A DNA stretch of 64,000 bases from an uncultured Myxococcales bacterium (GTDB lineage: Bacteria > Myxococcota > UBA727 > CAYLZW01): contig CAYLZW010000003.1 of assembly GCA_964388085.1 (NCBI GenBank), positions 1,279 through 65,278 on the forward strand, given 5' to 3'. The translations under genes and the position numbers were made by a program. Positions 21,679-35,445 of this stretch are shown piece after piece. Each line of letters opens with the position of its first letter. Positions within the stretch are counted from its first letter, which is position 1. The notes under the pieces are model-generated. The model was not told the DNA's origin. It ran no database searches and saw only the letters and a list, made by a program, of their open reading frames with translations.

Positions 21679-23403
21679 TCAACCGACGCCGACGCCATCT
21701 GCGTCGACGCTGCGCAGCGCCATGGACAGGCCTTCGAGCGTCAGGTGCCCGTTCTCGTCGAGCGAGAAGCCGCCGTGGACGGCAGCGCTCCCTCTGGGGA
21801 GCTCGACGAGCTCGCCGAAGAGCACGGCGGGATCGCTGCCGGCCTCGACGTGTCCGCGCCCGCGCAGCGTCGGCCAGCGCTGTCCGGGCCGCAGCTCGAC
21901 GGACGTGAGCGACAGCCTGCCTTGCGCGCCCGAGGAGAAGCGCACGGCCGCCTTCGGGCCGAGCGGGAGCTGCCCGGAGTGAAAGCGCAGGCGTAGGTCT
22001 CCCTCGGCCACCAGCGCGTCGAGTCCCTCCTCGCTGGCGGCGATCTGCGTGATGCGCAGATCCGCGTCGCTGCCCGCCGCGAGGCGAGCCTGAAGCTCAC
22101 CGAGGCGGGCGGAGCCGCTCTCCACGTCGACGTGCAGCAGCAGCTCGCCCGTGAAGGCGACGCCGAAATCGGTGCCGGCCTTGAGCTGTCCGCTGGCCTT
22201 CGCGCTCACGAGCGAGGCGGCCGCGTCGGCGATGCCGAGGTCGAGCGCGAGATCCCTGCAGGCGGCCGCGGCGCCGTCGATGCCGAGCTCCGCCTCGACG
22301 TGGCTCTCTGAGACGCTCAGGTGGCCGAGCAGCACGGTCGGGCTCAGCTCCACCGTGGTCGGCCGCCCGCCGATGCGCGCCACCACGACGCTGCGCTCGA
22401 GGGCGCCGTGCAGATCGCCGGCGCGCACGTGAAAGCGAAGCCCGCCGGCCGCGCGCGAGAGCTCGAGGGTGGAGCGCCCGAGCGAGGAGGGGCCGAGCTC
22501 CAGATGCGAGCCGTCGCGCAGGGTCAGGCGCGCGCGCTTGACGTTCGCCTCGAAGCAGGTCGCGTCGAGGCGGACGTCACCGGAGGCCGCGGGCCCGTCG
22601 AGCTGTAGCGAGACGCTGCCGTTCGCGGCCAGCCCCTCGACGTCGAAGCCCACGCCGCGCACGTGCGCCTGCAGCACCTGTACGCGGCCGCGCACGGCGA
22701 GCCCGGAGACGGCGAAGTCGACGTCGAGGCGGGTGTCGGGGCCGAGCAGCAGCTCGCCCGCGTCACCGAGGTGCAGCGGCTCGAGGCGCGGGATGACGTC
22801 GCGCGCCTCCACGAGCAGGCCGCTCGCGTCGAAGCCGCCGTCGTCGTCCCCCTCGCGCGGCGGTCGGTCCTCGAACACGAGCGCGATCAGCTCGTCGAGC
22901 GTGGCCGGGATGCGCGGTACCCGCGTGGTGAGCTGCGAGAGGTTTACGTCGGGGAAGCCGGCGATGTCGGCGATGACGTCGCCGTCGTCGTTCAGGTACA
23001 GGCCGCGGAAGGTCATGCCGAGCGGCAGCGAGATGGGCGGCTCGAGCGTGCCCTTGGTGGTCTCGCGCAAGATGGCGGCGTCCTTCACCTCCAGGTCGAT
23101 GATGGCCTCGGTGCCCTCGCGCAGCTCGATGGCGAGCGGCCCGACGCGGAACGACCTCGCCGACAACTTCAGGCGCACGCGCGCGCGGCCGCTGTCGGCG
23201 TGCCGAAGCAGCTCCTTGAGCGCCAGCTCGCGCACGGCGGCGATCTCGAGCTCGTCGCTGACCTGCGGGGTGACGATGTCCGGCCGCTCGAGGCGCGCGC
23301 TGCCGTCGCCGCCGACGCTCGCGGAGAGGCCGGCCAGCGGGATGTCGACGCGCTCGGCGAAGAAGCTCAGCTCGGCGCCGTGGAGGCGGGAGGTGTTCGT
23401 CAT
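21679..23403 (-). CDS. Hypothetical beta-strand-rich protein without signal peptide
   Basis: 574 aa; GAGGGG RBS; 10 nt after the DUF2079-type stop; alternating hydrophobic beta patterns. Confidence 0.7.
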   Translation of the reverse strand: MTNTSRLHGAELSFFAERVDIPLAGLSASVGGDGSARLERPDIVTPQVSDELEIAAVRELALKELLRHADSGRARVRLKLSARSFRVGPLAIELREGTEAIIDLEVKDAAILRETTKGTLEPPISLPLGMTFRGLYLNDDGDVIADIAGFPDVNLSQLTTRVPRIPATLDELIALVFEDRPPREGDDDGGFDASGLLVEARDVIPRLEPLHLGDAGELLLGPDTRLDVDFAVSGLAVRGRVQVLQAHVRGVGFDVEGLAANGSVSLQLDGPAASGDVRLDATCFEANVKRARLTLRDGSHLELGPSSLGRSTLELSRAAGGLRFHVRAGDLHGALERSVVVARIGGRPTTVELSPTVLLGHLSVSESHVEAELGIDGAAAACRDLALDLGIADAAASLVSAKASGQLKAGTDFGVAFTGELLLHVDVESGSARLGELQARLAAGSDADLRITQIAASEEGLDALVAEGDLRLRFHSGQLPLGPKAAVRFSSGAQGRLSLTSVELRPGQRWPTLRGRGHVEAGSDPAVLFGELVELPRGSAAVHGGFSLDENGHLTLEGLSMALRSVDADGVGVG

Positions 23404-23413
23404 CAATGTCCCC

Positions 23414-25375
23414 TCAACGACCCAGCGCCTCTAGCAGCGCGTCGCTCGGCGCGACCGCGGCGGCGTCGCTCGCGCCCGGCTTCTGGAACACGACCGTGGT
23501 GCCTTCGGAGAAGATCAGCGTCCAGCGCTCGTCGTCGAGGAGACGCTTCACGAGGCGCACCACGTAGCGCTTGTCGTGCGGCCACGGACCCTCGAGCGGG
23601 TTCAACACGATGTAGTCGGCGCGCGGCAGGAACTTCTCGTACGGCTGCCAGATGAATTGGCGCAGCGCGAGGTGCGGCAGGAAGTGGTTCTGCGCGACCA
23701 CGGGCGCGTCGTCGGGGATGAGCGCGAGCGCGCGGTTGTTGATGGCCACGCCTTCGGCCGTCGAGAAGTACGGCTTGTGGAGCGTGCCGAGCTCGATGCC
23801 GGAGGGCGAGGCCGCGAACGAGCCGAGCGTGGAGAGCACCAGGAAGAGCCCAAAGCTCACGTCGAGGACGCCGGGCGCGCTCAAGCGACGCAGCGCGCCG
23901 CTGCCGCTCTCGGAGCGCGCGGCCAGAAAGCCGGCCACGCGCTCGTAGCCGCGCAGCGACGCGTAGGCGCAGATGGACACGAGCACGAGCGAGTAGTGGT
24001 AGTGGAGGCCCCACATCTCGCGCTTGTCCGAGAGGAAGCGCTCGACCAGGTTCGGCAGCGCCAGCCAGAGCGCGCCGGGAGACAGGAAGGGCAGGAAGCC
24101 GAAGCCGCCGAAGGTGATGAGCAGCGTCGTGGCCTTCTGCTCGGGCGAGACGAGGGCTGTGAGCACCTTGCCCGGGTGACGCGCCATGTTGGCGACGCCC
24201 TCGCCGAGGCTGTCGCCGAAGGCGCCGAAGCGCGCCAGGTGGATCATCCCCTTCGAGTGCTCCTCGAGGAAGTGCGGCTGCATCCAGCCGACGACGAACC
24301 AGAAGGAGGCGAGGCAGACGACGGCGATGGCGGCGCCCTCGAGCCGGCGCCCTGGCCGCGTCAGGAGCAGCCAGCCGCCGACAGCGCCCGCGTAGAGGAT
24401 CGACGACTCCTTGCAGGCGAACACGAGCACGAGGCCGAGGTAGGCGAGCCAGCGACGGTTCGTGTCGAAGCCGAGGATGGCGAGAAACAAGCCGAGCGGG
24501 ACGGGCGCGATCTCGTGGAAGTCGAAGTTGATCATGCTCTGCGTGCCCACCGCGAACAGGTACGCGAGGTTCAAGCCGAGCACGGCGAAGGGCCCGAGGC
24601 CGCCGCGTCGAGCGAGCGCCGCCAGCGGGAAGGTGGCGCAGGCGACCACCAGGGCCTGCGCGACGAGCAGCAGCCAATCGACGCCGAGCCACGCGAGCGG
24701 CGCGAACAGGTACAGCACCGGCATGAAGTGGTTCGTGCCGCCCCAGAAGTGCGCGTCGCCGAGGACGCTCGAGATCTGCGGCTTGCCGAAGCCGAGGATG
24801 AAGATGTTGTGGTTGTAGCAGCCCATGTCCCACGAGCCGCTGCCGAAGCTCTCGTGCCGGGTCACGCTCCACACGACGTACACGACGACGGCGAGCGCGG
24901 TGGGCAGGTACACGGACGCGCGCTCGAACGAGAGCGCCCGCCGCGAGACGAAGCCGGCGCAGCGCTCGCCCACGAGGACGCCGATCGAGAGCGCGGCGCA
25001 CACGGCCAGGAACGCCGCCGGGATCATCGTGGTGGGGCCGGACACAACGCGCAGGACGAGCGCGAGGCCGGACACGGCGCCGAGCAGCCGCGTCCCGCGC
25101 TCGAGCAGCAGCTTCCGCCACGACGACACCAGCGCAGAGAGCAGCAGCGCCACGACGACGGTGCCGAGCATCATCGCTTCCATGGCGTCGAGGTGCGCGT
25201 CGATCCGGCTCGGGCTCTTGAGCGCGCCAAGGTTCACGCGCGCGCCGAACGTCACCGACCAGAGCGCGAGGCCGAACAGCGCCGCGCTGCCGAGGTAGGA
25301 GGCCCACGAGAACGCACGCTCGGCCGTGGCGCTCAGGGGACCCGCACCCCGGGCCCGCGGCGGCTCCGTCGTCAC
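23414..25375 (-). CDS. DUF2079-type polytopic membrane protein (predicted GT-C glycosyltransferase)
   Basis: RHESFGSGSWDMGCYNHN, NFDFHE, VFACKES and many TM helices. GTG 25375 overlaps the methyltransferase TGA. Confidence 0.82.
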   Translation of the reverse strand: MTTEPPRARGAGPLSATAERAFSWASYLGSAALFGLALWSVTFGARVNLGALKSPSRIDAHLDAMEAMMLGTVVVALLLSALVSSWRKLLLERGTRLLGAVSGLALVLRVVSGPTTMIPAAFLAVCAALSIGVLVGERCAGFVSRRALSFERASVYLPTALAVVVYVVWSVTRHESFGSGSWDMGCYNHNIFILGFGKPQISSVLGDAHFWGGTNHFMPVLYLFAPLAWLGVDWLLLVAQALVVACATFPLAALARRGGLGPFAVLGLNLAYLFAVGTQSMINFDFHEIAPVPLGLFLAILGFDTNRRWLAYLGLVLVFACKESSILYAGAVGGWLLLTRPGRRLEGAAIAVVCLASFWFVVGWMQPHFLEEHSKGMIHLARFGAFGDSLGEGVANMARHPGKVLTALVSPEQKATTLLITFGGFGFLPFLSPGALWLALPNLVERFLSDKREMWGLHYHYSLVLVSICAYASLRGYERVAGFLAARSESGSGALRRLSAPGVLDVSFGLFLVLSTLGSFAASPSGIELGTLHKPYFSTAEGVAINNRALALIPDDAPVVAQNHFLPHLALRQFIWQPYEKFLPRADYIVLNPLEGPWPHDKRYVVRLVKRLLDDERWTLIFSEGTTVVFQKPGASDAAAVAPSDALLEALGR

Positions 25376-26133
25376 GGAGTCTTCTCGAGCAGGACGAAGA
25401 GCTGGCAGCCCGCCCGCGACGAGCGCAGGTTCAGGTGGTTCAGCCAGTACAGCGCCTCCGAGACGACGATCTGCTTGGCGCCGTACTGCGTGTTGCTGAA
25501 GTTCTTGAGCGCCCACTCGGCGTTGACGTTCGTCGCCCACTTGAGCGCGTAGTAGGTCGGGAAGCCCCAGTTGATGAGCCGCTTCACGCGAAAGCCGTTG
25601 CGAGAGGCGCGCGCGCCGATCTCTTTCGGCGTCGGGTGCGTCGTGTGGCCGAAGTGCTTCTCCGTCGGAAACACACGCCCCGTCGGGCAGGTGAGCAGGA
25701 GATGCCCGCCCGGGCGCAGCATGCTCGCGAAGTGCCGGAAGGCGGCCTCCCGGTCGTCGAGGTGCTCGATGACCTCGCAGCTCACGATGCAGTCGAAGGT
25801 CTCCTCGAGCGCCCGCTTCTCGACGTCGAGCGCGAAGAAGCGCAGGTCCGGGAAGCGGCGCTCGTTGGCCTCGACCACGGCCTCGCTCAGGTCGGCGCCC
25901 GCCAGCTTGGCGTCCGGGTAGCGCGCGTGCAGCGCGGACAACAGCTCGCCGTTGCCGCAGCCCACGTCGAGCAGCGAGACGTCGCCGCCGTCGAGGCGCG
26001 CGTCCTTCAAGAGCTCGAGCGTGAAGTGTCGCCGCCAGCGCGCGCCCGGGTTGTAGCGGATGAAGTCCCGCTGGCCTTCCCACACGCTGTCATAGAGCTC
26101 GCGGTTGTAGGCGCTCGCGCTCTTGCCTTGCAT
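25372..26133 (-). CDS. Class I SAM-dependent methyltransferase
   Basis: LLDVGCGNG, GADLS, FDCIVSCEVIEHL, LRPGGHL. Confidence 0.9.
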   Translation of the reverse strand: MQGKSASAYNRELYDSVWEGQRDFIRYNPGARWRRHFTLELLKDARLDGGDVSLLDVGCGNGELLSALHARYPDAKLAGADLSEAVVEANERRFPDLRFFALDVEKRALEETFDCIVSCEVIEHLDDREAAFRHFASMLRPGGHLLLTCPTGRVFPTEKHFGHTTHPTPKEIGARASRNGFRVKRLINWGFPTYYALKWATNVNAEWALKNFSNTQYGAKQIVVSEALYWLNHLNLRSSRAGCQLFVLLEKTP

Positions 26134-26217
26134 CGTCGTCGTCCCTGGCCTCTTGTCGGGCGGGTATGACAGCGGCCAGGGGCGCTCGCAACGGGTGCGC
26201 GTGCGGGAGGGCCGGGT

Positions 26218-26982
26218 TCATCCCCTGGCGCGCAGGCGCCGACGACGCTGCACGTCGGTGGCGATGCGAGCGAGATCGCCGACCACCTTGGTCATCTGCG
26301 CCACGCTGAGCTTCGAGCCCTGCACGTCGCGCCACTGGCGCAGCGGCACCTCGACGAAGTCGGACACGAGCAGCGGCTCCACCTCGGGCGTCCCGGTGAT
26401 GAGCCGGCCGAGCAGCTCCACGTCGAAGGCCCAGCGGGAGATGAACGGCTCCTCCAGCGCGGCGTCGAGCGCCGGCGAGGCGGTGAAGAGCTTGGCCCCG
26501 CACTGGGTGTCGTACACGCGCAGGGCGAGGATCTGCGACGCGAAGGTCGCGAACACGCGCCCGAGGGTGTGGCGCCAGACCTTGCGGTCGATGGTGCGGC
26601 CGAGCAGCGCCACGCGCGCGCCGAGCAGGACCTGGGCGCGCGTCCGCTCGGCCTCGTCGAGGAGGAACGAGAGCTCGACGAAGGGCGTCGAGAGGTCGGC
26701 GTCGAGGTAGCCGACCATGGGAGCGCCGTGGGCCAGGGCCTCGAGCAGGCCGCGTCGCACGGCCTCGGCTTTGCCGCTGTTGCGCTCGAGGGTCAGGGTG
26801 GAGATGGCGGCGGGGCAAGCGTCCTGCAGCCCCCGCAGCACCTGCTCGGTGCCGTCGCTCGAGCCGTCATTGACGAGGAGGAGCTTCACCCGCCCCGCGC
26901 GCGCGAACGACAAGAACGCGTCCCGCTGGATGCGTCGCTCCTCGTTGTAACAGGGCACCACGATGACCGGTCGCTCGCTCAC
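26218..26982 (-). CDS. GT2 glycosyltransferase (polyprenol-phosphate sugar synthase-like)
   Basis: VIVVPCYNEE, VNDGSSDGT, NSGKAEAV, YLDADLS, DTQCGAKLF, WAFDVE. GTG 26982 overlaps the upstream TGA. Confidence 0.9.
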   Translation of the reverse strand: MSERPVIVVPCYNEERRIQRDAFLSFARAGRVKLLLVNDGSSDGTEQVLRGLQDACPAAISTLTLERNSGKAEAVRRGLLEALAHGAPMVGYLDADLSTPFVELSFLLDEAERTRAQVLLGARVALLGRTIDRKVWRHTLGRVFATFASQILALRVYDTQCGAKLFTASPALDAALEEPFISRWAFDVELLGRLITGTPEVEPLLVSDFVEVPLRQWRDVQGSKLSVAQMTKVVGDLARIATDVQRRRRLRARG

Positions 26983-28709
26983 GGCGCGCTCTCCTCGAGC
27001 GAGCGTAGCCGGCGTTCGCTGCGTTTCGCCTCTTTCTGGCGCGCTTCGTCGAGGTAGAGCTGGCGCAGCGTCCGAAGGCCCTCCGCCGTCTCCGCGCCCT
27101 TCAGCTCGGCTTCGAGGCGGGCGGCGCGGTCCTTGTCGTCGGGGCTCCAGTTGCGGAGCACGTGCGCGGCGCCGCTCGTCTTCTGCCAGGGCGGCGTGAC
27201 GACGGGCAGCAGCGTGAGCGCGAACACCAGCGTCGCGAGGGCGAAGGTTCGCGCGGACACGGGCTCCTGGGCTCGCGCCTTCCACGCGACGAAGAGCACG
27301 CAGCCGACGAGGAACGCGAAGAACGGCACCATGGAGAGCGTGCCCCAGACGCCAACGAGGTTCAGCGCGTTGTAGGGCGCGAAGTCGTGCGCGATGGCCG
27401 GCCAGAAGATGTCGCGCAGCATGCGCTGCGTCTCGACGGGGATGTGCGGGTAGTACGCCGACGGGACGCCGGACGCGACGAGCCCGGTGGCGAGCGTGCC
27501 GAGCGTGAGGGCGACGGCGAGTCGCGGGCGCTTGTCGGCGATGCCGTCGAGCCCGACGAGGGCGCCCCACGCGAGCAGCGGGAACAGCGGGATGAGGTAG
27601 CGAGGCCCGACGCTCCAGCCCGCGTGCCAGATGTTGAGGCTCGTCGTGAACAGATAGAGCACGAGGCAGAGGGCGATGGCGATCCAAACAGGCGAACGCT
27701 CCTTCGCTCGCTTGCTCAGCCAATAAAGCCCGACGAAGGCGAACAGCATCCAGGGCGCCAGCGGGAACAGCCCCTGGCGTGGATCGAAGGTGAGGCCGAA
27801 GATCGCCTCGAGCTTCGGTGTGCTCGCGCCGAACAGCCCGACCTCGTGGCCGGCCTTGAACGACTGGTTCTCGAGCATCTTGTGACCGGGCCGGAACGGG
27901 CTGCCGAAGGCCGCCCACTGAAAGTGCATGACCGCCAGCGTCGGCACGAGCGCGCCAGCGACGAAGGCGGCGAGCCTCTGCGCGGGCCGCACGACGACGA
28001 GGGCCCAGCCGGACAGGATCAGCGACAAGAGCACGCCCGGGTACTCGAAGGCGGTGATGGCGGCGGTCGAGAAGCCGGCGAAGGTCGCCGCCGCGACGCT
28101 GAGCGTCCGCTTCTGCGCGGCCTCTCTGAGCAGCGCGAACGAGAAGAACACCGCCACCGCCGCGAGCGAGTGGCTCACGAACATGACCGAGTACGCGTAG
28201 AAGGGCGAGCCGAGCGCGAGGCCGAGGGTGACGGCGTCCGCGAGCCACTCTCTCGTCGTAAAGCGCGAGAGCCAGAGCCGGAAGCAGAGCAGGAACGCGA
28301 GCACCGGCAAGATGACGGCGGTGAAGCGCACGAGCCAGTGCGCCACGGCGAGATCCACCGGCTGATCCCGGACCTCCTGCACGACGTGGTAGGCGAAGTA
28401 GGCGGGCACGCCGAGGAAGCTCGTGGCCGGTCCCTTCACGCTATAGAGCTTGCCGTCGCGGATGGCGGCGTCGTTCACCCAGCCCCAGCGCTTCCTGTAC
28501 TCGTTGACGACGTAGCTGCCGTCCTCGGCGATGGCCGCGGTCATGTAGAGCCGCAGCTTCTCGTTGGGGTTTCCGATCTTCGGATGGTACGGAAAGGTGT
28601 AGAGGAGCCCGATCGTGCAGAGCGCGATCACCGCCAGGCCGCGCCGAACGGCAGGGTGGTGCAGGACGCGGCGGACGACGGGCTCGGCTTCCAAAGCGCC
28701 GTCGAGCAT
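26979..28709 (-). CDS. Polytopic membrane protein, predicted GT-C glycosyltransferase
   Basis: Short N-terminal TM, then a loop (NEKLRLYMTAAIAEDG...YSVKGP) and about 11 TM helices. Start uncertain. Confidence 0.72.
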   Translation of the reverse strand: MLDGALEAEPVVRRVLHHPAVRRGLAVIALCTIGLLYTFPYHPKIGNPNEKLRLYMTAAIAEDGSYVVNEYRKRWGWVNDAAIRDGKLYSVKGPATSFLGVPAYFAYHVVQEVRDQPVDLAVAHWLVRFTAVILPVLAFLLCFRLWLSRFTTREWLADAVTLGLALGSPFYAYSVMFVSHSLAAVAVFFSFALLREAAQKRTLSVAAATFAGFSTAAITAFEYPGVLLSLILSGWALVVVRPAQRLAAFVAGALVPTLAVMHFQWAAFGSPFRPGHKMLENQSFKAGHEVGLFGASTPKLEAIFGLTFDPRQGLFPLAPWMLFAFVGLYWLSKRAKERSPVWIAIALCLVLYLFTTSLNIWHAGWSVGPRYLIPLFPLLAWGALVGLDGIADKRPRLAVALTLGTLATGLVASGVPSAYYPHIPVETQRMLRDIFWPAIAHDFAPYNALNLVGVWGTLSMVPFFAFLVGCVLFVAWKARAQEPVSARTFALATLVFALTLLPVVTPPWQKTSGAAHVLRNWSPDDKDRAARLEAELKGAETAEGLRTLRQLYLDEARQKEAKRSERRLRSLEESAP

Positions 28710-28765
28710 ACAAGCGAAGCGCCCACTGACAAGAAGCACGCACACGCAGCACGCGAGCAGCACGC

Positions 28766-29581
28766 ATGGCCAACCTGAAGCTCCTCGTGCCGACGTACCG
28801 GACCCGCCACCGCTGGGTGACGCGCGCGCTCTCGTCGCTGGCGGCCGGCTTGCCGGGGACACAGAGCACGTTCGGCCAAGCGCTCCACGTCGGCACCGGC
28901 GAGGGTGACTATGACCCAATCGTGCGTCGTCACGCCGAGCGCCTCGTCGCCTGCGACATCTCGCGCGGGGACGTGCGCTTCGCCAGCCACCTGAACCAGG
29001 GGCTCGGTGTCGGCTATACCGTGGCCGACGCGTGCCGCTTACCGTTCCCCGACGACAGCTTCGATCTGGTCGTCAGCGTCGACGTCATCGAGCACGTGCC
29101 CGACTCGCGCGCCATGGCCGCCGAGCTCGCGCGGGTGCTGAAGCCCGGCGGCCGCGCGCTGCTCACCTGCCCCATCACCGACTTCCCCTGGACGTACGAT
29201 CCGCTCAATCGCGTGCTGCAGCGCTTCGGCACCCACGTCCCCGTCGGCGCCTATGCGTACGGGCACGACAAGCTCATGCAGCGAGACGTGCTCGAGCGTT
29301 GGCTCGCCGAGGACGGCCTGCGCGTCGAGGAGCGACAGCCGCTGTCGGGCACGCTCACCGGCGCGTTCGAGAGCTATTGGGCCGGCGTCGTGCAATCCGT
29401 GATGAAGGCGAACGCGAAGAACAAAGACAGCGCCGCGAGCGGCCTGGCCGTGCGACCCGACGACAAAGCGCCGCCGCTGCTCTCGTGGGTGGACGGCCTC
29501 ATCGGCCTCGACGAGCGCCTGACCGGCGACGGCGGCCCGTCCGTGGGCGTGGGATATCTGCTCACCAAGCGCCGGGGCTAG
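28766..29581 (+). CDS. Class I SAM-dependent methyltransferase (divergent)
   Basis: LHVGTGEG, ACDIS, ADACRLPFPDDSFDLVVSVDVIEHV, ARVLKPGG. Confidence 0.9.
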   Translation: MANLKLLVPTYRTRHRWVTRALSSLAAGLPGTQSTFGQALHVGTGEGDYDPIVRRHAERLVACDISRGDVRFASHLNQGLGVGYTVADACRLPFPDDSFDLVVSVDVIEHVPDSRAMAAELARVLKPGGRALLTCPITDFPWTYDPLNRVLQRFGTHVPVGAYAYGHDKLMQRDVLERWLAEDGLRVEERQPLSGTLTGAFESYWAGVVQSVMKANAKNKDSAASGLAVRPDDKAPPLLSWVDGLIGLDERLTGDGGPSVGVGYLLTKRRG

Positions 29582-29591
29582 ACACAAGAAT

Positions 29592-29661
29592 TCGCGCAAA
29601 GCCGCGAAGCCGCAGAGGAACCGCATCTGTGTTCCCTTTGCGGCTTTGCGGCTTTGCGCGA
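29592..29661. repeat. REP-like palindromic element with 8-nt periodic arms between convergent genes; likely bidirectional terminator or small non-autonomous element
   Basis: Left arm tcgcgcaaagccgcgaagccgcagaggaac, loop cgcatctgt, right arm gttccctttgcggctttgcggctttgcgcga (about 30-bp stem). Confidence 0.8.
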
Positions 29662-29688
29662 GACCCTGTTCTGCAGCACTCGCTCCGC

Positions 29689-31656
29689 TCAGAGGCTCGT
29701 CGAGATCTTCCGCGCGAGGTCATGGTTTGTCACCCGCCAGGACATCTCGACCTCCTCGGCCGCATAGCTCTTGAGCTCATTACAGCGAGAAGACGGCAGC
29801 TGCTCCATGGCGGGGAATGAGCTGCATTTGTTCCCGCGGGGATTGAACACGAGCCCGTCCCCAATGGCGGCTCCGTCCCAGCGAGCCGCGCGGCCGCCGG
29901 TGTCGCCGGGCAAGAGCGGTCGGCCGACGAAGGGCGCGTCGTCGTTGACCCCGAGCAGATGGAGGACCGTCGGGGTCACGTCGACCTGGCCGCCGATGCC
30001 CTCGACAACGGTCGCGTGTGCTCCTTGCGGGAGACGAATGAGCAACGGAATGCGGTCGCCCACCACCGAGCCCTTGGCGATGTAGCGGCGCTTCTCGTCG
30101 GGCACGTCGAGCACCTCGTCGATGGCCTTCGTGTCGCGGCGCTTTCGCTTCAGGTGCGCGTCGTGATCGCCGTAGAGCACGACCACGGTGTCGTCGAGCA
30201 GGCCCTCCTCCTCGAGGTCCTTGAAGAAGCCCTCGAGCGCCTGGTCCGCGTAGCTCACCGAGTGGACGTAGTTGCCCACCATGGTGTTCTCGAGCGGGCC
30301 GAGCTTCAGGCGCCGCTTGTTGCGCGGGATGTACGTGTACGGGTGGTGCGAGCTCAGCGTGATGAGGAACGCCATGAAGGGGCGCTCTTGTGCCTTCAGC
30401 TCCGGCGTCGCCTTCTCGAAGAAGGCGATGTCGTCGAGGCCCCAGCCGATCTTGGGAGTGTCGCCGAGCTCGCGTCGGAACAAGGAGCGCTCGAAGCCGT
30501 AGCGCGGGTGGATGTAGGCGCGGTTCCACATGCCGCGCTGGTACGCGTGCATGGACAGCGTCGAGTAGCCGCCTCTCTGCAGCACGGTGGCGATGGTCTC
30601 GAAGTTATTCGACTCGCGGCGGAAGGCGACCGAGCCGGTGTCGAGGGGATGCTGGGAGTTCAGCACCAGGTACTCGCAGTCGCTCGTCGACGAGCTGCCG
30701 GTCTGATCGAGCAGGTGCGGGTAGTAGAGCGACTCGCGCTTGAGCCGGTTCAGAAACGGCGTGATCTCCTGTCCGTTGGCCTTGGCGTCGAGCACCCACT
30801 CCTCGAGGGCCTCCACCTGCAGCACGAGCACGTTCTTGCCCTTGGCCACGCCAAACAGCGCGTCAGCGGGCTCGCGCGCGCGCCGTCGCTCGCTGAAGTA
30901 GCGCTCTGTCTCCGCGAGCTCTTCCTTCGTCAGGTCTCGCTGCTCGAGCCACTGCTTGAGGGCGAGCGTGGTCTCGCGGATGTGCGCGACGACGATGCCA
31001 CCGGCCTCCACCGAGTCATGCCGGTTCAGCACCTCGCGCGCGTACTTGGAGTTGAGCCACTTGGTGACGTCCGCGTGGATCGTCGGCAGCGACGCCACAG
31101 CGACGACGATGACCGGCAGCGCCCACAGGACGCCGCGCAGCCAGACCGGGGGCGGGCGCTCGATGAGCGGCGCGCGCCACAGCGCCATGACGACGAGCGC
31201 GGAGACGAACAGCGGCAGCATCCACCAGTCGTACGACTCGAAGATGGCGAGGATGCTGTCGCGCACGTCCCACAGCTGCACCGCGCTGCCGGCCGCGAGC
31301 AGAGGCAGCACGTTGCCGAAGTAGCGGTCGTAGACGATGTCGGCGAGCGACAAAAACGCGAGCGCGAACGCGATGGCGCCGGTGAGCTGGAAGCGCTGTC
31401 GTCGAGGCAGCAGCAGCACCAGCAGCGCGAACAGCCCGGCGGACGCGAGCGCGTTCGGCGGGAACAGGTTGTGCTCGCGCACCGGGATGAGCCAGCGCAC
31501 GACATAGAGATCGAGCAGCGCGAAGCCGAACATCCACGCCGCCGGCAGCAGGTCGAGCACGAGCGCGATCGGCCGGCGCATGCGCGGCCCCAGCAGGAGC
31601 AGCGCCACGGCGACGGCGACCGTGACGAGGAGCAGAGTGATGAGGAGGGTGATCAC
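29689..31656 (-). CDS. LTA synthase (LtaS)-family phosphoglycerol transferase
   Basis: About 5 TM helices, then NVLVLQVEALE, NGQEITPFLNRL, TGSSSTSDCE (Thr nucleophile), LSSHHPY, VVLYGDH. GTG 31656 lies 26 nt after the oleD stop. Confidence 0.88.
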   Translation of the reverse strand: MITLLITLLLVTVAVAVALLLLGPRMRRPIALVLDLLPAAWMFGFALLDLYVVRWLIPVREHNLFPPNALASAGLFALLVLLLPRRQRFQLTGAIAFALAFLSLADIVYDRYFGNVLPLLAAGSAVQLWDVRDSILAIFESYDWWMLPLFVSALVVMALWRAPLIERPPPVWLRGVLWALPVIVVAVASLPTIHADVTKWLNSKYAREVLNRHDSVEAGGIVVAHIRETTLALKQWLEQRDLTKEELAETERYFSERRRAREPADALFGVAKGKNVLVLQVEALEEWVLDAKANGQEITPFLNRLKRESLYYPHLLDQTGSSSTSDCEYLVLNSQHPLDTGSVAFRRESNNFETIATVLQRGGYSTLSMHAYQRGMWNRAYIHPRYGFERSLFRRELGDTPKIGWGLDDIAFFEKATPELKAQERPFMAFLITLSSHHPYTYIPRNKRRLKLGPLENTMVGNYVHSVSYADQALEGFFKDLEEEGLLDDTVVVLYGDHDAHLKRKRRDTKAIDEVLDVPDEKRRYIAKGSVVGDRIPLLIRLPQGAHATVVEGIGGQVDVTPTVLHLLGVNDDAPFVGRPLLPGDTGGRAARWDGAAIGDGLVFNPRGNKCSSFPAMEQLPSSRCNELKSYAAEEVEMSWRVTNHDLARKISTSL

Positions 31657-31682: not shown

Positions 31683-32711
31683 TCAGCCAAAGCGCCCGGC
31701 GACGAGCTGCTCCTTGAGCCAGGGGACGGTGCGACGACGCCCTTCTGCCATCGACACCGAGGGAGCGTAACCAAGATCGCGCGCGGCGGCGTCGATGCGA
31801 TAGGTGTGGGACGTCGCCATCATCTTGGCCGCCCACTCGGTGACCGGCGGCTCTCCCGACAGCCCGAACGACGACCACGCGACGTCGAGCGCCTTGCCGA
31901 CGACGCGCGCGACGCCACGCGGGATCTTGCGCTTCACGGCCGGTAGCCCGAGCTCGACGAGGATCTCGTTCACCCAGTCCCACAGCACCACGGGCTCGCC
32001 GTTGGTGATGAAGTAGGCCTTGCCGGCGGCGGGGCTGTCCCTCTTCGCGAGCGCGTCCGCCGCGAGCAGGTGCGCTTGCACGACGTTGTCGACGTAGGTC
32101 AGGTCCACGCGGTTCTTTCCGTCGCCGACGATGCGCAGGCGGCCCTTCTTCGCGCGCTCGATGACGCGCGGCAGCGAGCCCGTGTCTCCCGGGCCGAACA
32201 CGAGGTGCGGGCGAAGCGCGCACGTTCGCAGGGGCAGCCCGGCCGTCTCGCGTCCGTTTGCCTCGAGCACCAGGCGCTCGGCCATGGCCTTGGTGCGGGG
32301 GTAGTCCGCCAGGTACTCGGCGGCATAGGGGGCGCGCTCGTCGAGCGCCGCGAAGCCGGCCTGCTCGTCGACGACCGAGGGCGAGCTGCAGAAGACCAGG
32401 CGGTTTACGCCGTTCTTCACGCACGCCTCGATGACGTTCTCCGTGCCGCGCACGTTGATGCGCTCGAATTCCTTCGCGTCGCCGGCGCCGCCCACCTTCG
32501 CGGCCACGTGGAAGATGACGTCGACGTCACGGCTGATCGCCTGCAGGTGATGCTCGTCGGTGATGTCGCCCTTCACGCAGCGCACGCCGGCCTGCTCGAG
32601 CTCCGGGTAGCTGCCGCGCTGGTACGCGATGACGTCGTCACCTCGCGCCCGCAGCGCTCGCGCGAGCTTGCCGCCGACGAACCCACCGCCACCGGTCACC
32701 AACGCGCGCAT
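31683..32711 (-). CDS. oleD: 2-alkyl-3-oxoalkanoate reductase OleD (3-beta-HSD/epimerase family)
   Basis: TGGGGFVG, YPRTKAMAE, LRPHLVFGPGD; last gene of the ole order. Confidence 0.85.
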   Translation of the reverse strand: MRALVTGGGGFVGGKLARALRARGDDVIAYQRGSYPELEQAGVRCVKGDITDEHHLQAISRDVDVIFHVAAKVGGAGDAKEFERINVRGTENVIEACVKNGVNRLVFCSSPSVVDEQAGFAALDERAPYAAEYLADYPRTKAMAERLVLEANGRETAGLPLRTCALRPHLVFGPGDTGSLPRVIERAKKGRLRIVGDGKNRVDLTYVDNVVQAHLLAADALAKRDSPAAGKAYFITNGEPVVLWDWVNEILVELGLPAVKRKIPRGVARVVGKALDVAWSSFGLSGEPPVTEWAAKMMATSHTYRIDAAARDLGYAPSVSMAEGRRRTVPWLKEQLVAGRFG

Positions 32712-32724: not shown

Positions 32725-34452
32725 TCATCGCGGACCCGAGGGAGGTGGCGGAGGAAGCGACGCCACCCACGCGCTCAGCTTCTCGCGCTCGATCTTCGCG
32801 TTATGGCGCCGGTCGACGGGGAACGCCGGGTGCACCAGGAAGCGCTCGATGCCCTTCGTCGTCTCGTGCCCGTCGGCGATGGCGCGCAGCTCCTCGTGCA
32901 GCGCCTTGTCGTTGGCGCGCCCGGGCAGGAGCTCGACGCACACGGCGGGCGTCTGCCGCGGCCGCTCGCCGATCCACACGAGCGCCGCGCGGTACACGCT
33001 CGGGTGCTCCTCGAACAGCGCCTCCACCGGCACCGAGAAGAGCGTGGGCGCGCCCTCGCGCTCGACGCGATGCGCCTTCCGGCCGCAGAACCACAGCCTG
33101 CCGTCGTCGTCGAGGTACCCGACGTCCCCCATGCGGTGGTACCAGCCGCCGTCGTCGGTCTCCATCTTCGAGAGCGCGTTGTGCTCGGGCCGCTGGTCGT
33201 ACTGCCGGCTGATGTACGCGCCCTTCACGCACAGCTCGCCGATCTCTCCGCGCGGCACCTCGAGCTCCGGCGAGAAGCGCGCGATGGGCTCGTCACTGAT
33301 GCGGATGACGCGCACGTCGACGTCCGAGACCGGCACGCCGACGCAGGTGCCTTTGCCTTGGCGCGTGAGCGCGGCCGTCTCGCGCAGCACCTGCCGGCCG
33401 CCGATGCCGGCGACGGGCAGCGCCTCCGTGGCGCCGTAGGGAGTGAACACGTCAGCGTCGGGGAGCGCCTTCAAGAGGCGCTCGTGCAGCGACGGCTGGA
33501 CAGGAGCGCCCGCGCTCGCGAGCCGGGTGACGCCGGGCAGCGTGATGCCCTTGTCGTCGACGTAGCGGGAGAACGGGTCCCACAGGGCAGGGGAGGCGAA
33601 GGCGCTCTTGGCGCCGTAGGTGCGGAAGGCGTCGAGCACGCGCTCGGGGTCCGTGCGGGCAGGCTTGGTGGCGTCCATCTCGGGGACGACGGCGCTCATG
33701 CCGAGCGAGCCCGCGATGAGCGCGAAGGGCGGGAAGCAGGCGACGTGCGCCTCCCCCGGCCGGTAGTCGAGCATGGCGCGAATGGCGCGCTGCTGTCCGC
33801 CCATCATGGCGTGCGTAAAGACGACGCCCTTCGGCACCCCCGTCGAGCCCGACGTGTAGAGGATGGCGGCGGGGATGGTGGGGTCGAGGGACTCGCGCGG
33901 AAACGGAACGTCCCGCACGGTGGACGGCAGCTTGTCGACGAGGGCCGCGAGCGCCTTGGTGCCCGGAAACCAACGAGCGCCCGCGAGGAGCTTCACCCTG
34001 GCGGCCTTGAACGCGCGGGGAAACAGCACGCGCAGGACGTGAGCCTTCGTCACACCGACGAACGCGCTCGGCTTCTGCTCGGCGACGCAGGCGAGCAGGC
34101 TCTTCACGCCCATGCCGGGATCGATGAGCACGAACACGGCCTGCAGCTTGGCGCACGCGTACACGACGGCGAACAGATCGATGGGATCGGTGATGAACAG
34201 CACCACCCGGTCGCCGCGCTTCACGCCGCTCGACGACAGCGCGTGCGCGTAGTTGTCCGCCAACGTGTTGAGCGCCGCGAACGTGATCTCCTTGAAGCGC
34301 GAGCGCCCGTCGCGGCCGCGTCCGTCCGCGCGCGCCACCGCGACGACCTCAGGCTGCACGCGCGCCCAGTGCTCGAGGAGCTGCGCGCTGTTGTAGCCGA
34401 GCGCGTTCGGGTCGATCTCGTCGAAGACGGTGCCGGCGCTGCTTCCGTCCAT
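32725..34452 (-). CDS. oleC: Olefin beta-lactone synthetase OleC (AMP-binding family)
   Basis: LIDPGMG, YTSGSTGVPKG, TPYGATEALP, HRMGDVGY, FCGRKAHRV, VDRRHNAKI. Confidence 0.9.
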   Translation of the reverse strand: MDGSSAGTVFDEIDPNALGYNSAQLLEHWARVQPEVVAVARADGRGRDGRSRFKEITFAALNTLADNYAHALSSSGVKRGDRVVLFITDPIDLFAVVYACAKLQAVFVLIDPGMGVKSLLACVAEQKPSAFVGVTKAHVLRVLFPRAFKAARVKLLAGARWFPGTKALAALVDKLPSTVRDVPFPRESLDPTIPAAILYTSGSTGVPKGVVFTHAMMGGQQRAIRAMLDYRPGEAHVACFPPFALIAGSLGMSAVVPEMDATKPARTDPERVLDAFRTYGAKSAFASPALWDPFSRYVDDKGITLPGVTRLASAGAPVQPSLHERLLKALPDADVFTPYGATEALPVAGIGGRQVLRETAALTRQGKGTCVGVPVSDVDVRVIRISDEPIARFSPELEVPRGEIGELCVKGAYISRQYDQRPEHNALSKMETDDGGWYHRMGDVGYLDDDGRLWFCGRKAHRVEREGAPTLFSVPVEALFEEHPSVYRAALVWIGERPRQTPAVCVELLPGRANDKALHEELRAIADGHETTKGIERFLVHPAFPVDRRHNAKIEREKLSAWVASLPPPPPSGPR

Positions 34453-34464: not shown

Positions 34465-35445
34465 TCACTCTGCCGCTGCGTTGCTCGCGTGACTCTGCTC
34501 GCGCCCGGCGTGGACGGAGTCGAAGAAGCGCTCCAGCGCGGCGCTCACGCGATCGGGGGCGTCCTCGAACACATAGTGCGACGCGTCGCCGTACACCTCG
34601 CGCTCGGCGTTCGGGAAGCGCTGCAGCCAGCCTTCGTAGAACTTCATGTCGAAGCACCAGTCCTGCTCGCCCCACAGCACCAGCAGCGGACGGTCCTTGA
34701 GCTGCTCTAGCTGCCCGTCGACGTCGTTCACGACCGACCAGGTGCGGTGTGACGGCTTCTGCGGCACGTCCTCGACGAAGCGCAGGGTGGCGATGCGATC
34801 GTGTGGGTTTCCGTAAGGCGACAGGTACGCATGCTTGAGCGTCGCGTTCATGCGCTCCTTGTGCACCATGCACAGGCTGACGGCGGCGCGCGCGAAGCCG
34901 TTGAAGCGCAAAACCGCCTGAGGGCCGAACACGGGGATCTTCACGAGGGCGATGCGCTTCGGCAGGTCCCCGAGGAAGGCGCCGGTGTTCATGACCACGC
35001 CGGACACGTACGCGTGCTTACGCCTCGTCGCCACCGCCATGCCGATCATGCCCCCCCAGTCGTGCGCCACGACGGAGAAGCGCGTCACGCCGAGGTGGTC
35101 GAGCAGCTTCTCCACGTTGTCCGCGTGCCTCGGCAGCGTGTAGTCCCACCGCTGCGGGCGGTCCGACAGACCCATGCCCATGTGGTCCATGGCGACGCAG
35201 CGGAAGCGATCGCGCAGCGCCACGATCATCTTGCGCCAGATGAACGACCACGTCGGGTTGCCGTGCAGGAACACGATGACGGGCGCGTCCCGCGGGCCCT
35301 CGTCGAGGTAGTGCAGCCAGAGCGGCGCGCCCGCGTCATCGGACACGTCGAGGTAACGCGACTCGAACGGGTACTCGCTCGCCCAGGGCGCGCGCTTCAC
35401 GTCGACGAGAGCCTTCGGTCCGAACGGTCGCTCCACGTGCTGCAC
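34465..35445 (-). CDS. oleB: cis-3-alkyl-4-alkyloxetan-2-one (beta-lactone) decarboxylase OleB, haloalkane-dehalogenase-like
   Basis: HYLDEG, HGNPTWSF, VAHDWGGMIG (Asp nucleophile), ASHYVFED; lies between oleA and oleC. Confidence 0.87.
   Translation of the reverse strand: MQHVERPFGPKALVDVKRAPWASEYPFESRYLDVSDDAGAPLWLHYLDEGPRDAPVIVFLHGNPTWSFIWRKMIVALRDRFRCVAMDHMGMGLSDRPQRWDYTLPRHADNVEKLLDHLGVTRFSVVAHDWGGMIGMAVATRRKHAYVSGVVMNTGAFLGDLPKRIALVKIPVFGPQAVLRFNGFARAAVSLCMVHKERMNATLKHAYLSPYGNPHDRIATLRFVEDVPQKPSHRTWSVVNDVDGQLEQLKDRPLLVLWGEQDWCFDMKFYEGWLQRFPNAEREVYGDASHYVFEDAPDRVSAALERFFDSVHAGREQSHASNAAAE

What the first reader, a model, noticed from the sequence alone, without database searches (positions are those of the whole stretch)
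23414..31656. Candidate LTA-like polymer synthesis and decoration locus in a diderm: LtaS + GT2 + two GT-C + two methyltransferases
Seen: an LtaS-family gene with Firmicute-like catalytic motifs sits beside a polyprenol-P sugar synthase-like GT2, two GT-C-type membrane proteins and two SAM methyltransferases, with GTGA coupling at two junctions. Known: Gram-positive LTA is polymerised by LtaS and glycosylated by a GT-A/flippase/GT-C relay (CsbB-GtcA-YfhO); diderms normally lack LTA, and their relatives (OpgB type) transfer single phosphoglycerols. Inference: this may build a phosphoglycerol-containing, glycosylated and methylated envelope polymer or glycolipid. No GtrA-type flippase is in the window.
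Basis: partly seen in the sequence, partly recalled or inferred. Interest (0 to 1): 0.7.

Follow-up and report, generated by a model that had tools for sequence, protein, structure and literature searches.

The report
LtaS-type gene cluster beside oleABCD
A soil myxobacterial genome that seems to lack LPS carries a Gram-positive-type LtaS (glycerol-phosphate transferase) gene fused onto an olefin (oleABCD) operon and flanked by lipid-linked-sugar glycosyltransferases, suggesting an uncharacterised anionic envelope glycoconjugate, but nothing shows it is a true lipoteichoic acid.

Summary
The region encodes an LtaS-family protein with every LtaS catalytic and glycerol-phosphate-binding residue, a short GT2, two membrane proteins whose models have the GT-C fold, and two SAM methyltransferases. 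Both GTGA overlaps are real, and no GtrA gene exists anywhere in the MAG.

The region is not one operon. ltaS is the fifth gene of an oleABCD operon. A very stable hairpin and a convergent methyltransferase separate it from a GT-C/GT2/MT/DUF2079/unknown operon.

In a tree the protein sits in a diderm clade (Myxococcota, Acidobacteriota, Nitrospinota) that is sister to Firmicute LtaS and far from OpgB and EptA. Such genes are already annotated "LTA synthase family".

The ole/ltaS/GT-C neighbourhood recurs, once rearranged, in only four metagenome contigs. Sister families have plain oleABCD.

LpxC is missing from this MAG and from 36 of 38 genomes of its order.

The best reading is a GacI/GacL/GacH-like or LTA-like system: a polyprenyl-phosphate sugar relay plus glycerol-phosphate transfer from phosphatidylglycerol onto an envelope glycolipid or glycan. 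Whether a polymer or single caps are made, what the acceptor is, and what role ole plays all remain open.

The parts
35447..36406 (-). oleA-like thiolase; the true start may lie upstream, e.g. GTG at 36475
   Evidence: Best PDB hits are entries 3ROW, 4KU5 and 5VXF (about 266 bits), deposited as '3-oxoacyl-[ACP] synthase III' and recalled from memory as the X. campestris OleA structures, against about 68 bits for FabH. NCBIfam PRK09258 scores 394.9 bits, above its cutoff.
34465..35445 (-). oleB-like alpha/beta hydrolase (haloalkane-dehalogenase-like)
   Evidence: Pfam Abhydrolase_1; NCBIfam and PDB hits are haloalkane-dehalogenase-like. Its position lies between oleA and oleC.
32725..34452 (-). 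oleC-like AMP-dependent beta-lactone synthetase
   Evidence: NCBIfam PRK09274 scores 607 bits (above cutoff). The olefin beta-lactone synthetase models score 496-499 bits (below the equivalog cutoff).
31683..32711 (-). oleD-like 2-alkyl-3-oxoalkanoate reductase
   Evidence: NCBIfam OleD model 356.7 bits (cutoff 580); Pfam 3Beta_HSD 207 bits.
29689..31656 (-). LtaS-family membrane glycerophosphotransferase; fifth gene of the ole operon, 26 nt after the oleD stop, preceded by GAAGGAAG
29592..29661 (.). Long palindrome between the convergent ltaS and MT-F stops; probable bidirectional terminator; a repeated element in the metagenome
   Evidence: Fold -62.3 kcal/mol, z = -7.0, 0 of 200 shuffles fold as well. 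Sequence read. Unitigs of all four runs end here and depth is 2-4 times the flanks.
28766..29581 (+). SAM methyltransferase F, on the opposite strand, monocistronic
   Evidence: Pfam Methyltransf_11 80 bits. PDB neighbours are generic, e.g. phospho-ethanolamine/PE N-MTs and a glucose O-MT. The same inverted orientation is seen in L001 and L004.
26979..28709 (-). GT-C-fold membrane glycosyltransferase E, first gene of the second operon
   Evidence: No Pfam family. NCBIfam LA_3751/3752 putative GT 60 bits. AF2 pLDDT 93.7. The top 25 fold hits are all GT-C, including STT3, ArnT, EmbA/B, ALG9/12 and AftA/B. NPNE47-50, D80 and other residues are invariant.
26218..26982 (-). GT2 D, a candidate polyprenyl-phosphate sugar synthase; its start overlaps the E stop (GTGA)
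   Evidence: Pfam Glycos_transf_2. NCBIfam weak hits to ArnC and PpgS. PDB hits ArnC and GtrB. Overlap read.
25372..26133 (-). SAM methyltransferase C
   Evidence: Pfam Methyltransf_12/23/25/11, plus CMAS 41.6 bits and NodS 36 bits. PDB neighbours are generic.
23414..25375 (-). DUF2079 GT-C-fold membrane glycosyltransferase B; its start overlaps the C stop (GTGA)
   Evidence: Pfam DUF2079 208 bits. AF2 pLDDT 87.7. Fold hits are STT3, PglB, ArnT, ALG9 and EmbC. D183 and H216 are invariant. Overlap read.
21679..23403 (-). Gene A: 574-aa soluble protein with no known family, 10 nt after B with a GAGGGG ribosome-binding site
   Evidence: No Pfam or NCBIfam hit; no TM helix. Junction read. A 51%-identical homologue lies about 4 kb from the DUF2079 gene in L090.

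Best explanation
The locus is a composite envelope-lipid and glycoconjugate island made of three transcription units.

- Unit 1 is oleA-oleB-oleC-oleD-ltaS.
- Unit 2 is the lone, inverted methyltransferase F.
- Unit 3 is E (GT-C), D (GT2), C (methyltransferase), B (DUF2079 GT-C) and A (unknown).

Proposed mechanism. The fold and family assignments are shown; every chemical step is inferred.

1. D loads a sugar from a nucleotide sugar onto polyprenyl phosphate at the cytoplasmic face.
2. An unidentified flippase moves it across the membrane; there is no GtrA in the genome.
3. E and B, both GT-C enzymes with periplasm-facing active sites, transfer that sugar onto a membrane-anchored glycolipid, lipoglycan or secreted glycan.
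4. The LtaS-type enzyme takes sn-glycerol-1-phosphate from phosphatidylglycerol through its Thr324-phospho intermediate and puts it on that glycoconjugate. It may add single anionic caps (GacH-like) or a short or long poly-GroP chain (LtaS-like).
5. The soluble SAM methyltransferases act on cytoplasmic precursors, either the lipid-linked sugar or a lipid.

The lineage appears to lack lipid A synthesis, so the product would be a non-LPS surface glycoconjugate. Co-transcription of ltaS with oleABCD suggests co-regulation of hydrocarbon content and head-group remodelling of the membrane rather than a shared substrate.
For: - LtaS identity and intact active site.
- Placement beside Firmicute LtaS and far from OpgB and EptA.
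- GT-C folds of E and B.
- D's nearest solved relatives are the polyprenyl-phosphate glycosyltransferases ArnC and GtrB.
- Translational coupling E/D and C/B, and the tight B/A junction.
- Operon boundaries (hairpin, convergent F, sigma-70-like site upstream of E).
- The 10-gene block is kept with different flanks in L001 and L004.
- The block is kept after rearrangement in L089, where E and ltaS are adjacent and co-directional, DUF2079 is divergent and ole is convergent.
- L090 keeps oleD, three further unnamed ~580-aa proteins with no Pfam hit (not tested for relation to E), E, GT2, DUF2079 and A.
- An E-like GT-C is sandwiched between two ltaS-like genes in another family of the order (MAG-51).
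- The MAG's second LtaS paralogue is followed by a GT2.
- GT2 + GT-C + LtaS-family is the gene logic of GacI/GacL/GacH (PMC9574508) and of LTA glycosylation (PMC13721041).
- LpxC is absent from the MAG and from 36 of 38 genomes of the order, but present in 254 of 301 genomes of the phylum. tblastn with E. coli LpxB and LpxC found nothing in the MAG; LpxA gave only a weak hexapeptide cross-match to the LpxD-like locus.
Against: - No biochemical, lipidomic or transcript data exist; the only runs holding the locus are soil DNA metagenomes.
- ltaS and the glycosyltransferase operon are separate transcripts with a strong terminator between them.
- The linkage is seen in only five contigs of one narrow lineage, so inheritance rather than selection could explain it.
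- Most LtaS homologues in Myxococcota stand alone in unrelated contexts.
- DUF2079 orthologues and D orthologues in sister families lie away from ole and from any LtaS.
- D lacks the C-terminal TM helices of ArnC, GtrB and CsbB, and its scores to them are low (28 bits).
- No flippase was identified.
- The MAG is 89% complete in 727 contigs, so the absences (GtrA, Lpx genes) are not proof.
Confidence: 0.45

Rival explanations
1. The LtaS-type enzyme polymerises a true poly(glycerol-phosphate) LTA-like chain on a glycolipid anchor in the periplasm. The GT2/GT-C relay glycosylates that chain, as CsbB/GtcA/YfhO do, and methyltransferases add methyl groups.
For: - Full-length similarity to polymerising LtaS enzymes and every GroP-site residue kept.
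- Sister position to Firmicute LtaS.
- Two LtaS paralogues in the MAG and a tandem ltaS/GT-C/ltaS operon in MAG-51, which recall the Listeria primase/synthase pair.
- A GT2 and GT-C genes are nearby.
Against: - Sequence cannot separate polymerase from primase or capping enzyme; LtaP and GacH share the same catalytic set.
- The score is far below the NCBIfam LtaS equivalog cutoff (266 against 970 bits).
- No GtrA/GtcA flippase is present and neither GT-C is YfhO-family.
- No glycolipid-anchor synthase or LtaA-type gene is in the block.
- A long polyanionic chain would have to fit a diderm periplasm or be exported.
Confidence: 0.2
2. These are adjacent but functionally independent modules. oleABCD makes membrane olefins. 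ltaS is a stand-alone phosphoglycerol transferase, as in most Myxococcota. The E-D-C-B-A operon glycosylates some other target, such as protein O-glycosylation, an exopolysaccharide or another glycolipid. On this reading the neighbourhood is a lineage-specific accident.
For: - Three separate transcription units.
- Sister families have a plain four-gene oleABCD.
- B and D orthologues are elsewhere in those genomes.
- LtaS homologues sit in unrelated contexts.
- E homologues in Sandaracinus lie beside unrelated genes.
Against: - The block keeps its boundaries while its flanks differ.
- It survives rearrangement in L089 with E-ltaS newly co-directional.
- E-like/ltaS adjacency recurs in a distant, low-GC member of the order.
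- oleD/ltaS overlap by 8 nt in L001.
Confidence: 0.25
3. The products are chemically linked to the Ole pathway. One possibility is that a 2-alkyl-3-hydroxy acid, beta-lactone or olefin made by OleABCD is the lipid that is methylated or cyclopropanated by C or F. Another is that it serves as the anchor that is glycosylated and phosphoglycerylated.
For: - ltaS is the fifth gene of the ole operon here and in L001 and L004.
- ole genes accompany E, DUF2079 and GT2 in all five contigs of the lineage.
- MT C passes the Pfam CMAS threshold (41.6 bits against 27).
Against: - An olefin has no group to glycosylate.
- The CMAS match is weaker than the matches to generic MT families and covers only the Rossmann core.
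- PDB neighbours of both MTs are generic.
- The Ole enzymes look canonical.
- There is no precedent in the searched literature.
Confidence: 0.07
4. G is not a transferase. It is instead a PbgA/YejM-like regulator or lipid carrier, or a periplasmic hydrolase of the sulfatase superfamily.
For: It has the same 5-TM + alkaline-phosphatase-fold architecture as PbgA/YejM (PMC7576196 and PMC4973235, listed).
Against: - No PbgA/YejM chain appears among the PDB hits at E <= 0.001, whereas LtaS chains score E 1e-53.
- The complete LtaS nucleophile, metal and GroP-binding set is kept.
- The LpxC that PbgA regulates is absent.
- The arylsulfatase and choline-sulfatase models score near noise.
Confidence: 0.03

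Closest known systems
LtaS, LtaP and YfnI lipoteichoic acid synthases of Firmicutes (PDB 2W5Q, 2W8D, 4UOO, 4UOP)
   Same: - Same architecture: N-terminal multi-TM domain plus an extracytoplasmic sulfatase-fold domain.
- The extracytoplasmic domain aligns from about residue 246/252 to residue 649 with 2W8D and 4UOO, and to residue 572 with 2W5Q (E 1e-53 to 3e-47).
- Identical catalytic Thr, metal ligands and GroP-binding His/Trp/Arg/His.
- Sister clade in the tree.
   Different: - Host is a diderm that probably lacks LPS.
- The score is far below the curated LtaS equivalog cutoff.
- It belongs to a separate diderm clade.
- The gene is embedded in an oleABCD operon.
- No known anchor-glycolipid, LtaA or Dlt genes are beside it.
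- Polymerase activity is untested.
GacI/GacJ/GacK/GacL + GacH of Streptococcus pyogenes (side-chain GlcNAc addition and GroP capping of the group A carbohydrate)
   Same: Same gene logic: a GT2 making a polyprenyl-phosphate sugar, a GT-C transferring it outside the membrane, and an LtaS-family enzyme adding GroP from phosphatidylglycerol (PMC9574508).
   Different: - G is much closer in sequence to LtaS proper; no GacH chain appears among the PDB hits.
- There is no Wzx or GacJ-like partner.
- There are two GT-C enzymes of other families (DUF2079 and an unnamed family).
- There are two methyltransferases.
- The context is a diderm.
CsbB/GtcA/YfhO three-component LTA glycosylation; PpgS/Rv3632/Rv3779 of M. 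tuberculosis
   Same: A cytoplasmic GT2, a lipid-linked sugar and an extracytoplasmic GT-C (PMC13721041; PMC3485146). D gives weak hits to PpgS and ArnC.
   Different: - No GtrA-family small membrane protein exists anywhere in the MAG.
- Neither GT-C is YfhO-family.
- D lacks TM helices.
- That Rv3779 is itself DUF2079 is my recollection only and was not tested.
OpgB/MdoB and EptA of E. coli
   Same: Membrane-anchored alkaline-phosphatase-superfamily enzymes that move a phospholipid head group to a periplasmic acceptor.
   Different: They are very distant. The OpgB model scores 18 bits. In the tree, OpgB and EptA lie outside the LtaS + diderm-LtaS clade on branches of 4.05 and 6.7 changes per site.
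Canonical four-gene oleABCD olefin clusters (Xanthomonas, Shewanella)
   Same: Same four enzymes in the same order; the best matches are to OleA structures and to the OleC and OleD models.
   Different: In this lineage a fifth gene, ltaS, is appended, with a 26-nt gap here and an 8-nt overlap in L001. Sister families of the same order keep the plain four-gene form.

Membership tests
LtaS (LTA synthase) family | N-terminal multi-TM domain followed by an extracytoplasmic sulfatase/alkaline-phosphatase-fold domain | tested here: met
   Six hydropathy peaks lie within residues 4-193. Pfam Sulfatase covers residues 274-570. The LtaS model aligns over residues 68-649. Precomputed PF27449 LtaS_N is listed for this protein itself and for its closest homologues, marked weak or faint for the homologues.
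LtaS (LTA synthase) family | Catalytic Thr nucleophile, Mn ligands (Glu, Asp, His) and GroP-binding His/Trp/Arg/His; S. aureus E255, T300, D475, H476, H347, W354, R356, H416 (numbering from memory) | tested here: met
   E282, T324, D497, H498, H370, W377, R379 and H437 align to the corresponding residues of 2W5Q, 2W8D and 4UOO. They are invariant in 20 diderm homologues.
LtaS (LTA synthase) family | Groups with LtaS rather than with OpgB or EptA in a phylogeny | tested here: met
   The diderm clade (SH-aLRT 98) is sister to the Firmicute LtaS group. E. coli OpgB and EptA are outside. This was a quick search with long branches, so the deep order is approximate.
LtaS (LTA synthase) family | Reaches the curated NCBIfam equivalog score for Gram-positive LTA synthase | tested here: not met
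   265.8 bits against a cutoff of 970. It is a family member, not an equivalog.
LtaS (LTA synthase) family | Polymerises poly(glycerol phosphate) from phosphatidylglycerol onto a glycolipid | not testable with these tools
   Needs an enzyme assay, an anti-LTA blot or complementation.
GacH-type GroP capping system | LtaS-family gene clustered with a GT2 polyprenyl-P-sugar synthase and a GT-C transferase | tested here: met
   G, D, E and B lie within 8.2 kb. The arrangement is conserved in L001 and L004; in the rearranged L089, ltaS, E and DUF2079 are kept but no GT2 or methyltransferase is seen on that contig.
GacH-type GroP capping system | Sequence closeness to GacH | tested here: not met
   No GacH chain is among the 7 PDB hits at E <= 0.001; the hits are LtaS, LtaP, VP1736 and a phosphonate monoester hydrolase.
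CsbB/GtcA/YfhO three-component glycosylation | GtrA/GtcA-family small membrane protein | tested here: not met
   PF04138 has no match in the whole MAG at E <= 0.01, while the control rings in 8 of 14 genomes. The MAG is 89% complete.
CsbB/GtcA/YfhO three-component glycosylation | Extracytoplasmic GT-C glycosyltransferase | tested here: met
   The E and B models match only GT-C enzymes at the top of the fold search. Neither is in the YfhO Pfam family.
CsbB/GtcA/YfhO three-component glycosylation | GT2 that charges polyprenyl phosphate | tested here: inconclusive
   It has the GT2 domain and a DAD motif. Its nearest solved relatives are ArnC and GtrB, but only at 28 and 19 bits, and the C-terminal TM helices are missing.
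OpgB (phosphoglycerol transferase I) | Sequence membership | tested here: not met
   18 bits against a cutoff of 572-574; outside the clade in the tree.
OleABCD olefin pathway | Four co-oriented genes: OleA thiolase, OleB hydrolase, OleC ligase, OleD reductase | tested here: met
   The OleC and OleD equivalog cutoffs are not reached (499 of 850 and 357 of 580), as expected for a distant lineage.
PbgA/YejM | Sequence similarity to PbgA and presence of the LpxC/LapB circuit | tested here: not met
   No PbgA chain is among the PDB hits. LpxC is absent.

The most novel reading that the evidence does not exclude
In a myxobacterial order that has lost lipid A synthesis, an LtaS-type glycerophosphotransferase co-expressed with olefin synthesis works with a polyprenyl-phosphate-sugar/GT-C relay. 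Together they build an anionic, methylated lipoglycan (LTA- or lipomannan-like) that takes over part of the surface role of LPS. This would be a teichoic-acid-like polymer in a classical diderm.
Probability: 0.12. Interest if true: 0.85.

Novelty: new variant of a known kind. Interest (0 to 1): 0.55.

Why it matters
LTA and its synthase are textbook monoderm traits; a current review says that LTA and WTA are unique to monoderm bacteria (PMC13721041). This work shows three things:

- A sizeable LtaS-type clade in diderm phyla has not, to my knowledge, been studied experimentally; the literature searches here turned up no such study.
- One member is hard-wired into an olefin operon next to a lipid-linked sugar relay.
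- The host order seems to have lost LpxC.

If the enzyme makes glycerol-phosphate polymers or caps, it would help answer what LPS-less diderms put on their surface. The only characterised case is Sorangium So ce56, where sphingolipids and ornithine lipids were reported (Keck et al. 2011, cited in PMC11324152). It would also widen the known range of teichoic-acid-like chemistry.

The enzyme is testable by complementation of laboratory B. subtilis or S. aureus ltaS mutants. If it only adds single caps to a glycan, it is an ordinary extension of GacH or OpgB logic.

Tried and rejected
- The search for related loci with the single LtaS protein found nothing. An alignment was needed.
- The OleC alignment gave patterns too narrow for genome contigs; it returned one true relative, L092.
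- Literature searches for DUF2079, oleABCD + lipoteichoic, LtaS + Myxococc* and OleA/OleD + myxobacteria returned nothing relevant.
- I tested whether LtaS presence tracks LPS loss. It does not: every LtaS-bearing genome outside the window's order in the phylum sample has LpxC (11 of the 14 LtaS-bearing genomes; the other 3, incl. the MAG, are in the order).
- I tested whether sister families keep a 'GT2 + GT-C + LtaS-like' module. They keep the D orthologue with an E-like GT-C and a PMT_2 GT-C. The neighbouring sulfatase-domain protein, however, is arylsulfatase- or choline-sulfatase-like, not LtaS.
- PbgA/YejM-like and OpgB-like readings were rejected on sequence.
- The substrate class of the two methyltransferases could not be narrowed; the CMAS, NodS and PE-N-MT hits are all weak and generic.
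- No RNA runs hold the locus, so co-transcription could not be tested.
- Gene A gave no family in Pfam or NCBIfam.

Full report
**Gene map**

The window is about 70% G+C, so I set the gene models from third-position GC and candidate starts. From high to low coordinates on the minus strand the genes are:
- oleA-like, 35447-36406
- oleB-like, 34465-35445
- oleC-like, 32725-34452
- oleD-like, 31683-32711
- LtaS-like G, 29689-31656

Next comes methyltransferase F, on the plus strand at 28766-29581. Back on the minus strand are:
- E, 26979-28709
- GT2 D, 26218-26982
- methyltransferase C, 25372-26133
- DUF2079 protein B, 23414-25375
- an unknown soluble protein A, 21679-23403

**Observation check**

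- G matches the NCBIfam LTA-synthase model over its full length (265.8 bits) against 18 bits for OpgB.
- G aligns to the solved B. subtilis, Listeria and S. aureus LtaS domains at E 1e-53 to 3e-47.
- Residues E282, T324, H370, W377, R379, H437, D497 and H498 occupy the positions of the LtaS metal ligands, Thr nucleophile and glycerol-phosphate pocket. They are invariant in 20 diderm homologues.
- E has no Pfam family. Its AlphaFold model (pLDDT 93.7) returns only GT-C enzymes as its best 25 PDB fold matches: STT3, ArnT, EmbA/B, ALG9/12, AftA/B, Pmt4, DPY19, PglB and AftD.
- B (DUF2079; model pLDDT 87.7) does the same.
- D is a 254-aa GT2 without TM helices. Its nearest solved relatives are the polyprenyl-phosphate glycosyltransferases ArnC and GtrB, at low scores.
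- Both GTGA overlaps were read from the sequence.
- GtrA is absent from the window and also from the whole MAG.
- The organism is a diderm: an AsmA-family gene is in the window and BamA homologues are in the genome.
- Unitigs from four soil metagenome runs tile 23000-36600 with no differences.

- ltaS starts 26 nt after the oleD stop, behind a GAAGGAAG motif. It is therefore the fifth gene of a bona fide oleABCD operon. The same reader noted this separately (finding e1-5229237).
- Immediately after the ltaS stop lies a 70-nt palindrome that folds at -62 kcal/mol (z = -7). F converges on it from the other side.
- E starts 56 nt from F in the divergent direction, with a sigma-70-like site upstream.
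- A follows B by 10 nt with its own GAGGGG.

The finding therefore spans three transcription units: oleABCD-ltaS, F, and E-D-C-B-A.

**Relatives and phylogeny**

About 250 homologues of G at E <= 1e-10 were found. Many are already labelled 'LTA synthase family protein' from Polyangiaceae or other Myxococcota MAGs.

A pattern scan of species-representative genomes found LtaS-type genes at 34-45% identity in several groups:
- Polyangiaceae
- Nannocystis and Enhygromyxa
- Acidobacteriota (Thermoanaerobaculia, Holophagae)
- Nitrospinaceae

In a maximum-likelihood tree:
- All these diderm sequences form one clade (SH-aLRT 98).
- That clade is sister to the group holding the three solved Firmicute LtaS proteins.
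- E. coli OpgB and EptA lie far outside.

Equally, an LtaS-type gene in a myxobacterium is not new at the annotation level.

**Conservation of the neighbourhood**

- Two metagenome contigs whose LtaS is 66% and 74% identical carry the same order, including the inverted F: oleABCD, ltaS, MT, GT-C, GT2, MT, DUF2079. Their flanks differ, and in one of them oleD and ltaS overlap by 8 nt.
- A more distant contig (L089; LtaS 47%, E 48%) keeps ole, ltaS, E and DUF2079 but rearranged. E and ltaS are adjacent and co-directional, and ole is convergent.
- A further contig (L090) has oleD, E plus three unnamed ~580-aa proteins with no Pfam hit (not tested for relation to E), the GT2, a DegT aminotransferase, a split DUF2079 and a homologue of A. 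No ltaS is in view.

Against this:
- Every sister family of the order that has ole carries a plain four-gene cluster.
- Their DUF2079 orthologues (43-55% identity) and D orthologues (52%) lie elsewhere.
- None of the other Myxococcota LtaS homologues examined sits near ole or DUF2079, and none near an E-like gene except MAG-51 (L044).

Pairing of LtaS-type genes with glycosyltransferases nevertheless recurs:
- MAG-51, a low-GC member of the same order, has an overlapping ltaS-like / E-like GT-C / ltaS-like operon.
- The MAG's own second LtaS paralogue is followed by a GT2.
- In another family two LtaS-like genes sit in a Wzy/Bac_transf polysaccharide cluster.

**LPS**

- LpxC is not found in the MAG.
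- It is missing from 36 of the 38 genomes of its order, including 92-100% complete ones.
- It is present in 254 of 301 genomes sampled across the phylum.
- tblastn with E. coli proteins finds BamA and an LpxD-like gene but no LpxB or LpxC, and for LpxA only a weak cross-match to the LpxD-like locus.

The lineage therefore looks like an LPS-less diderm, as described for Sorangium cellulosum So ce56 (Keck et al. 2011, cited in PMC11324152). LtaS-bearing genomes elsewhere in the phylum do have LpxC, so there is no simple correlation.

**Mechanism**

Shown:
- an intact LtaS-type active site
- two GT-C folds
- a GT2 of the polyprenyl-phosphate-sugar-synthase type, with weak support
- translational coupling inside the second operon
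- ltaS inside the ole operon

Inferred:
1. D charges polyprenyl phosphate with a sugar.
2. E and B transfer it at the periplasmic face to a membrane-anchored or secreted glycoconjugate.
3. G adds sn-glycerol-1-phosphate from phosphatidylglycerol.
4. The soluble methyltransferases act on cytoplasmic precursors.

The gene content equals that of two known systems:
- LTA glycosylation by a GT2/flippase/GT-C relay (PMC13721041).
- The streptococcal GacI/GacL/GacH system, where an LtaS-family enzyme adds single GroP caps to a GT-C-installed GlcNAc (PMC9574508).

Sequence cannot say which of polymer or cap is made. I give 0.45 to the general model. The separately scored rivals are:
- a true poly-GroP LTA-like polymer: 0.2
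- independent adjacent modules: 0.25
- a chemical link to Ole products: 0.07
- a non-transferase role: 0.03

**Verdict**

This is a new variant of a known kind: an LtaS-family enzyme with a lipid-linked sugar relay. What is unusual is its fusion to oleABCD, its host (a probably LPS-less diderm) and its two GT-C families of unknown function. Its value lies in being a cheap, testable entry point, by complementation and a phosphatidylglycerol cleavage assay, into a clade of diderm LtaS-type enzymes for which I know of no experimental study.

Noticed in passing
whole genome G000 and its order: LpxC is absent from the MAG and from 36 of 38 genomes of its order, but present in 254 of 301 genomes of the phylum sample. 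BamA and an LpxD-like gene are present; LpxB and LpxC were not found by tblastn, and LpxA gave only a weak cross-match to the LpxD-like locus. The order looks like an LPS-less diderm lineage. It also contains a family of reduced genomes (0.3-3.4 Mb) that lack ole and DUF2079 (B) genes and show no LtaS match where sampled.
   Followed up: partly
window 29592-29661: The palindrome after ltaS is a repeated element. Word depth in the bin holding it is 2-4 times that of the flanks in four metagenome runs, and the unitigs of all four runs end inside it. It is also the only join between the ltaS side and the F/E side in those assemblies. Synteny in L001 and L004 independently supports the adjacency.
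   Followed up: partly
window 21679-23403 (-): Gene A is 574 aa, soluble, Ala/Gly/Leu/Val-rich and repetitive, with no Pfam or NCBIfam family. It is coupled to the DUF2079 gene (10-nt gap). A 51%-identical homologue lies near the cluster in L090. It converges on a 1210-aa AsmA-family gene at 17926-21558.
   Followed up: partly
L044 = L121 (MAG-51, same order), about 6505-11812: An overlapping operon of LtaS-like (632 aa), an E-like GT-C (507 aa) and LtaS-like (634 aa) in a 43% G+C genome. It is reminiscent of a primase/synthase pair with a dedicated GT-C.
   Followed up: partly
L122 (G178:C11) 6033-14624: Two LtaS-like genes flank a UDP-GlcNAc 2-epimerase gene. They lie next to Bac_transf and Wzy_C genes, so the LtaS-type enzymes are embedded in a polysaccharide cluster in another family of the same phylum.
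   Followed up: no
L125 (own genome C237) 4262-7394: The MAG's second LtaS paralogue (40% identical to G) is followed directly by a 352-aa GT2.
   Followed up: no
L090 10324-12217: The DUF2079 gene is split into two reading frames (47% and 49% of the query each). This is either a frameshifted pseudogene or an assembly error. The same contig has three further ~580-aa proteins with no Pfam hit (whether they are E paralogues was not tested) and a DegT aminotransferase next to E and the GT2.
   Followed up: no
window 28705-28732 (-): The only sigma-70-like site in 17.5 kb (TTGTCA-16-TATGCT) overlaps the ATG chosen for E at 28709. The true start of E may therefore be TTG 28694 or GTG 28631; homologues are 558-569 aa.
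   Followed up: no
L132 (G084:C9) 2264-11363: In a sister family the D orthologue (52% identity) sits in an operon with an E-like GT-C, an unnamed membrane protein and a PMT_2 GT-C. The operon converges on a membrane-anchored arylsulfatase- or choline-sulfatase-like protein, and lies 90 kb from that genome's plain oleABCD.
   Followed up: partly
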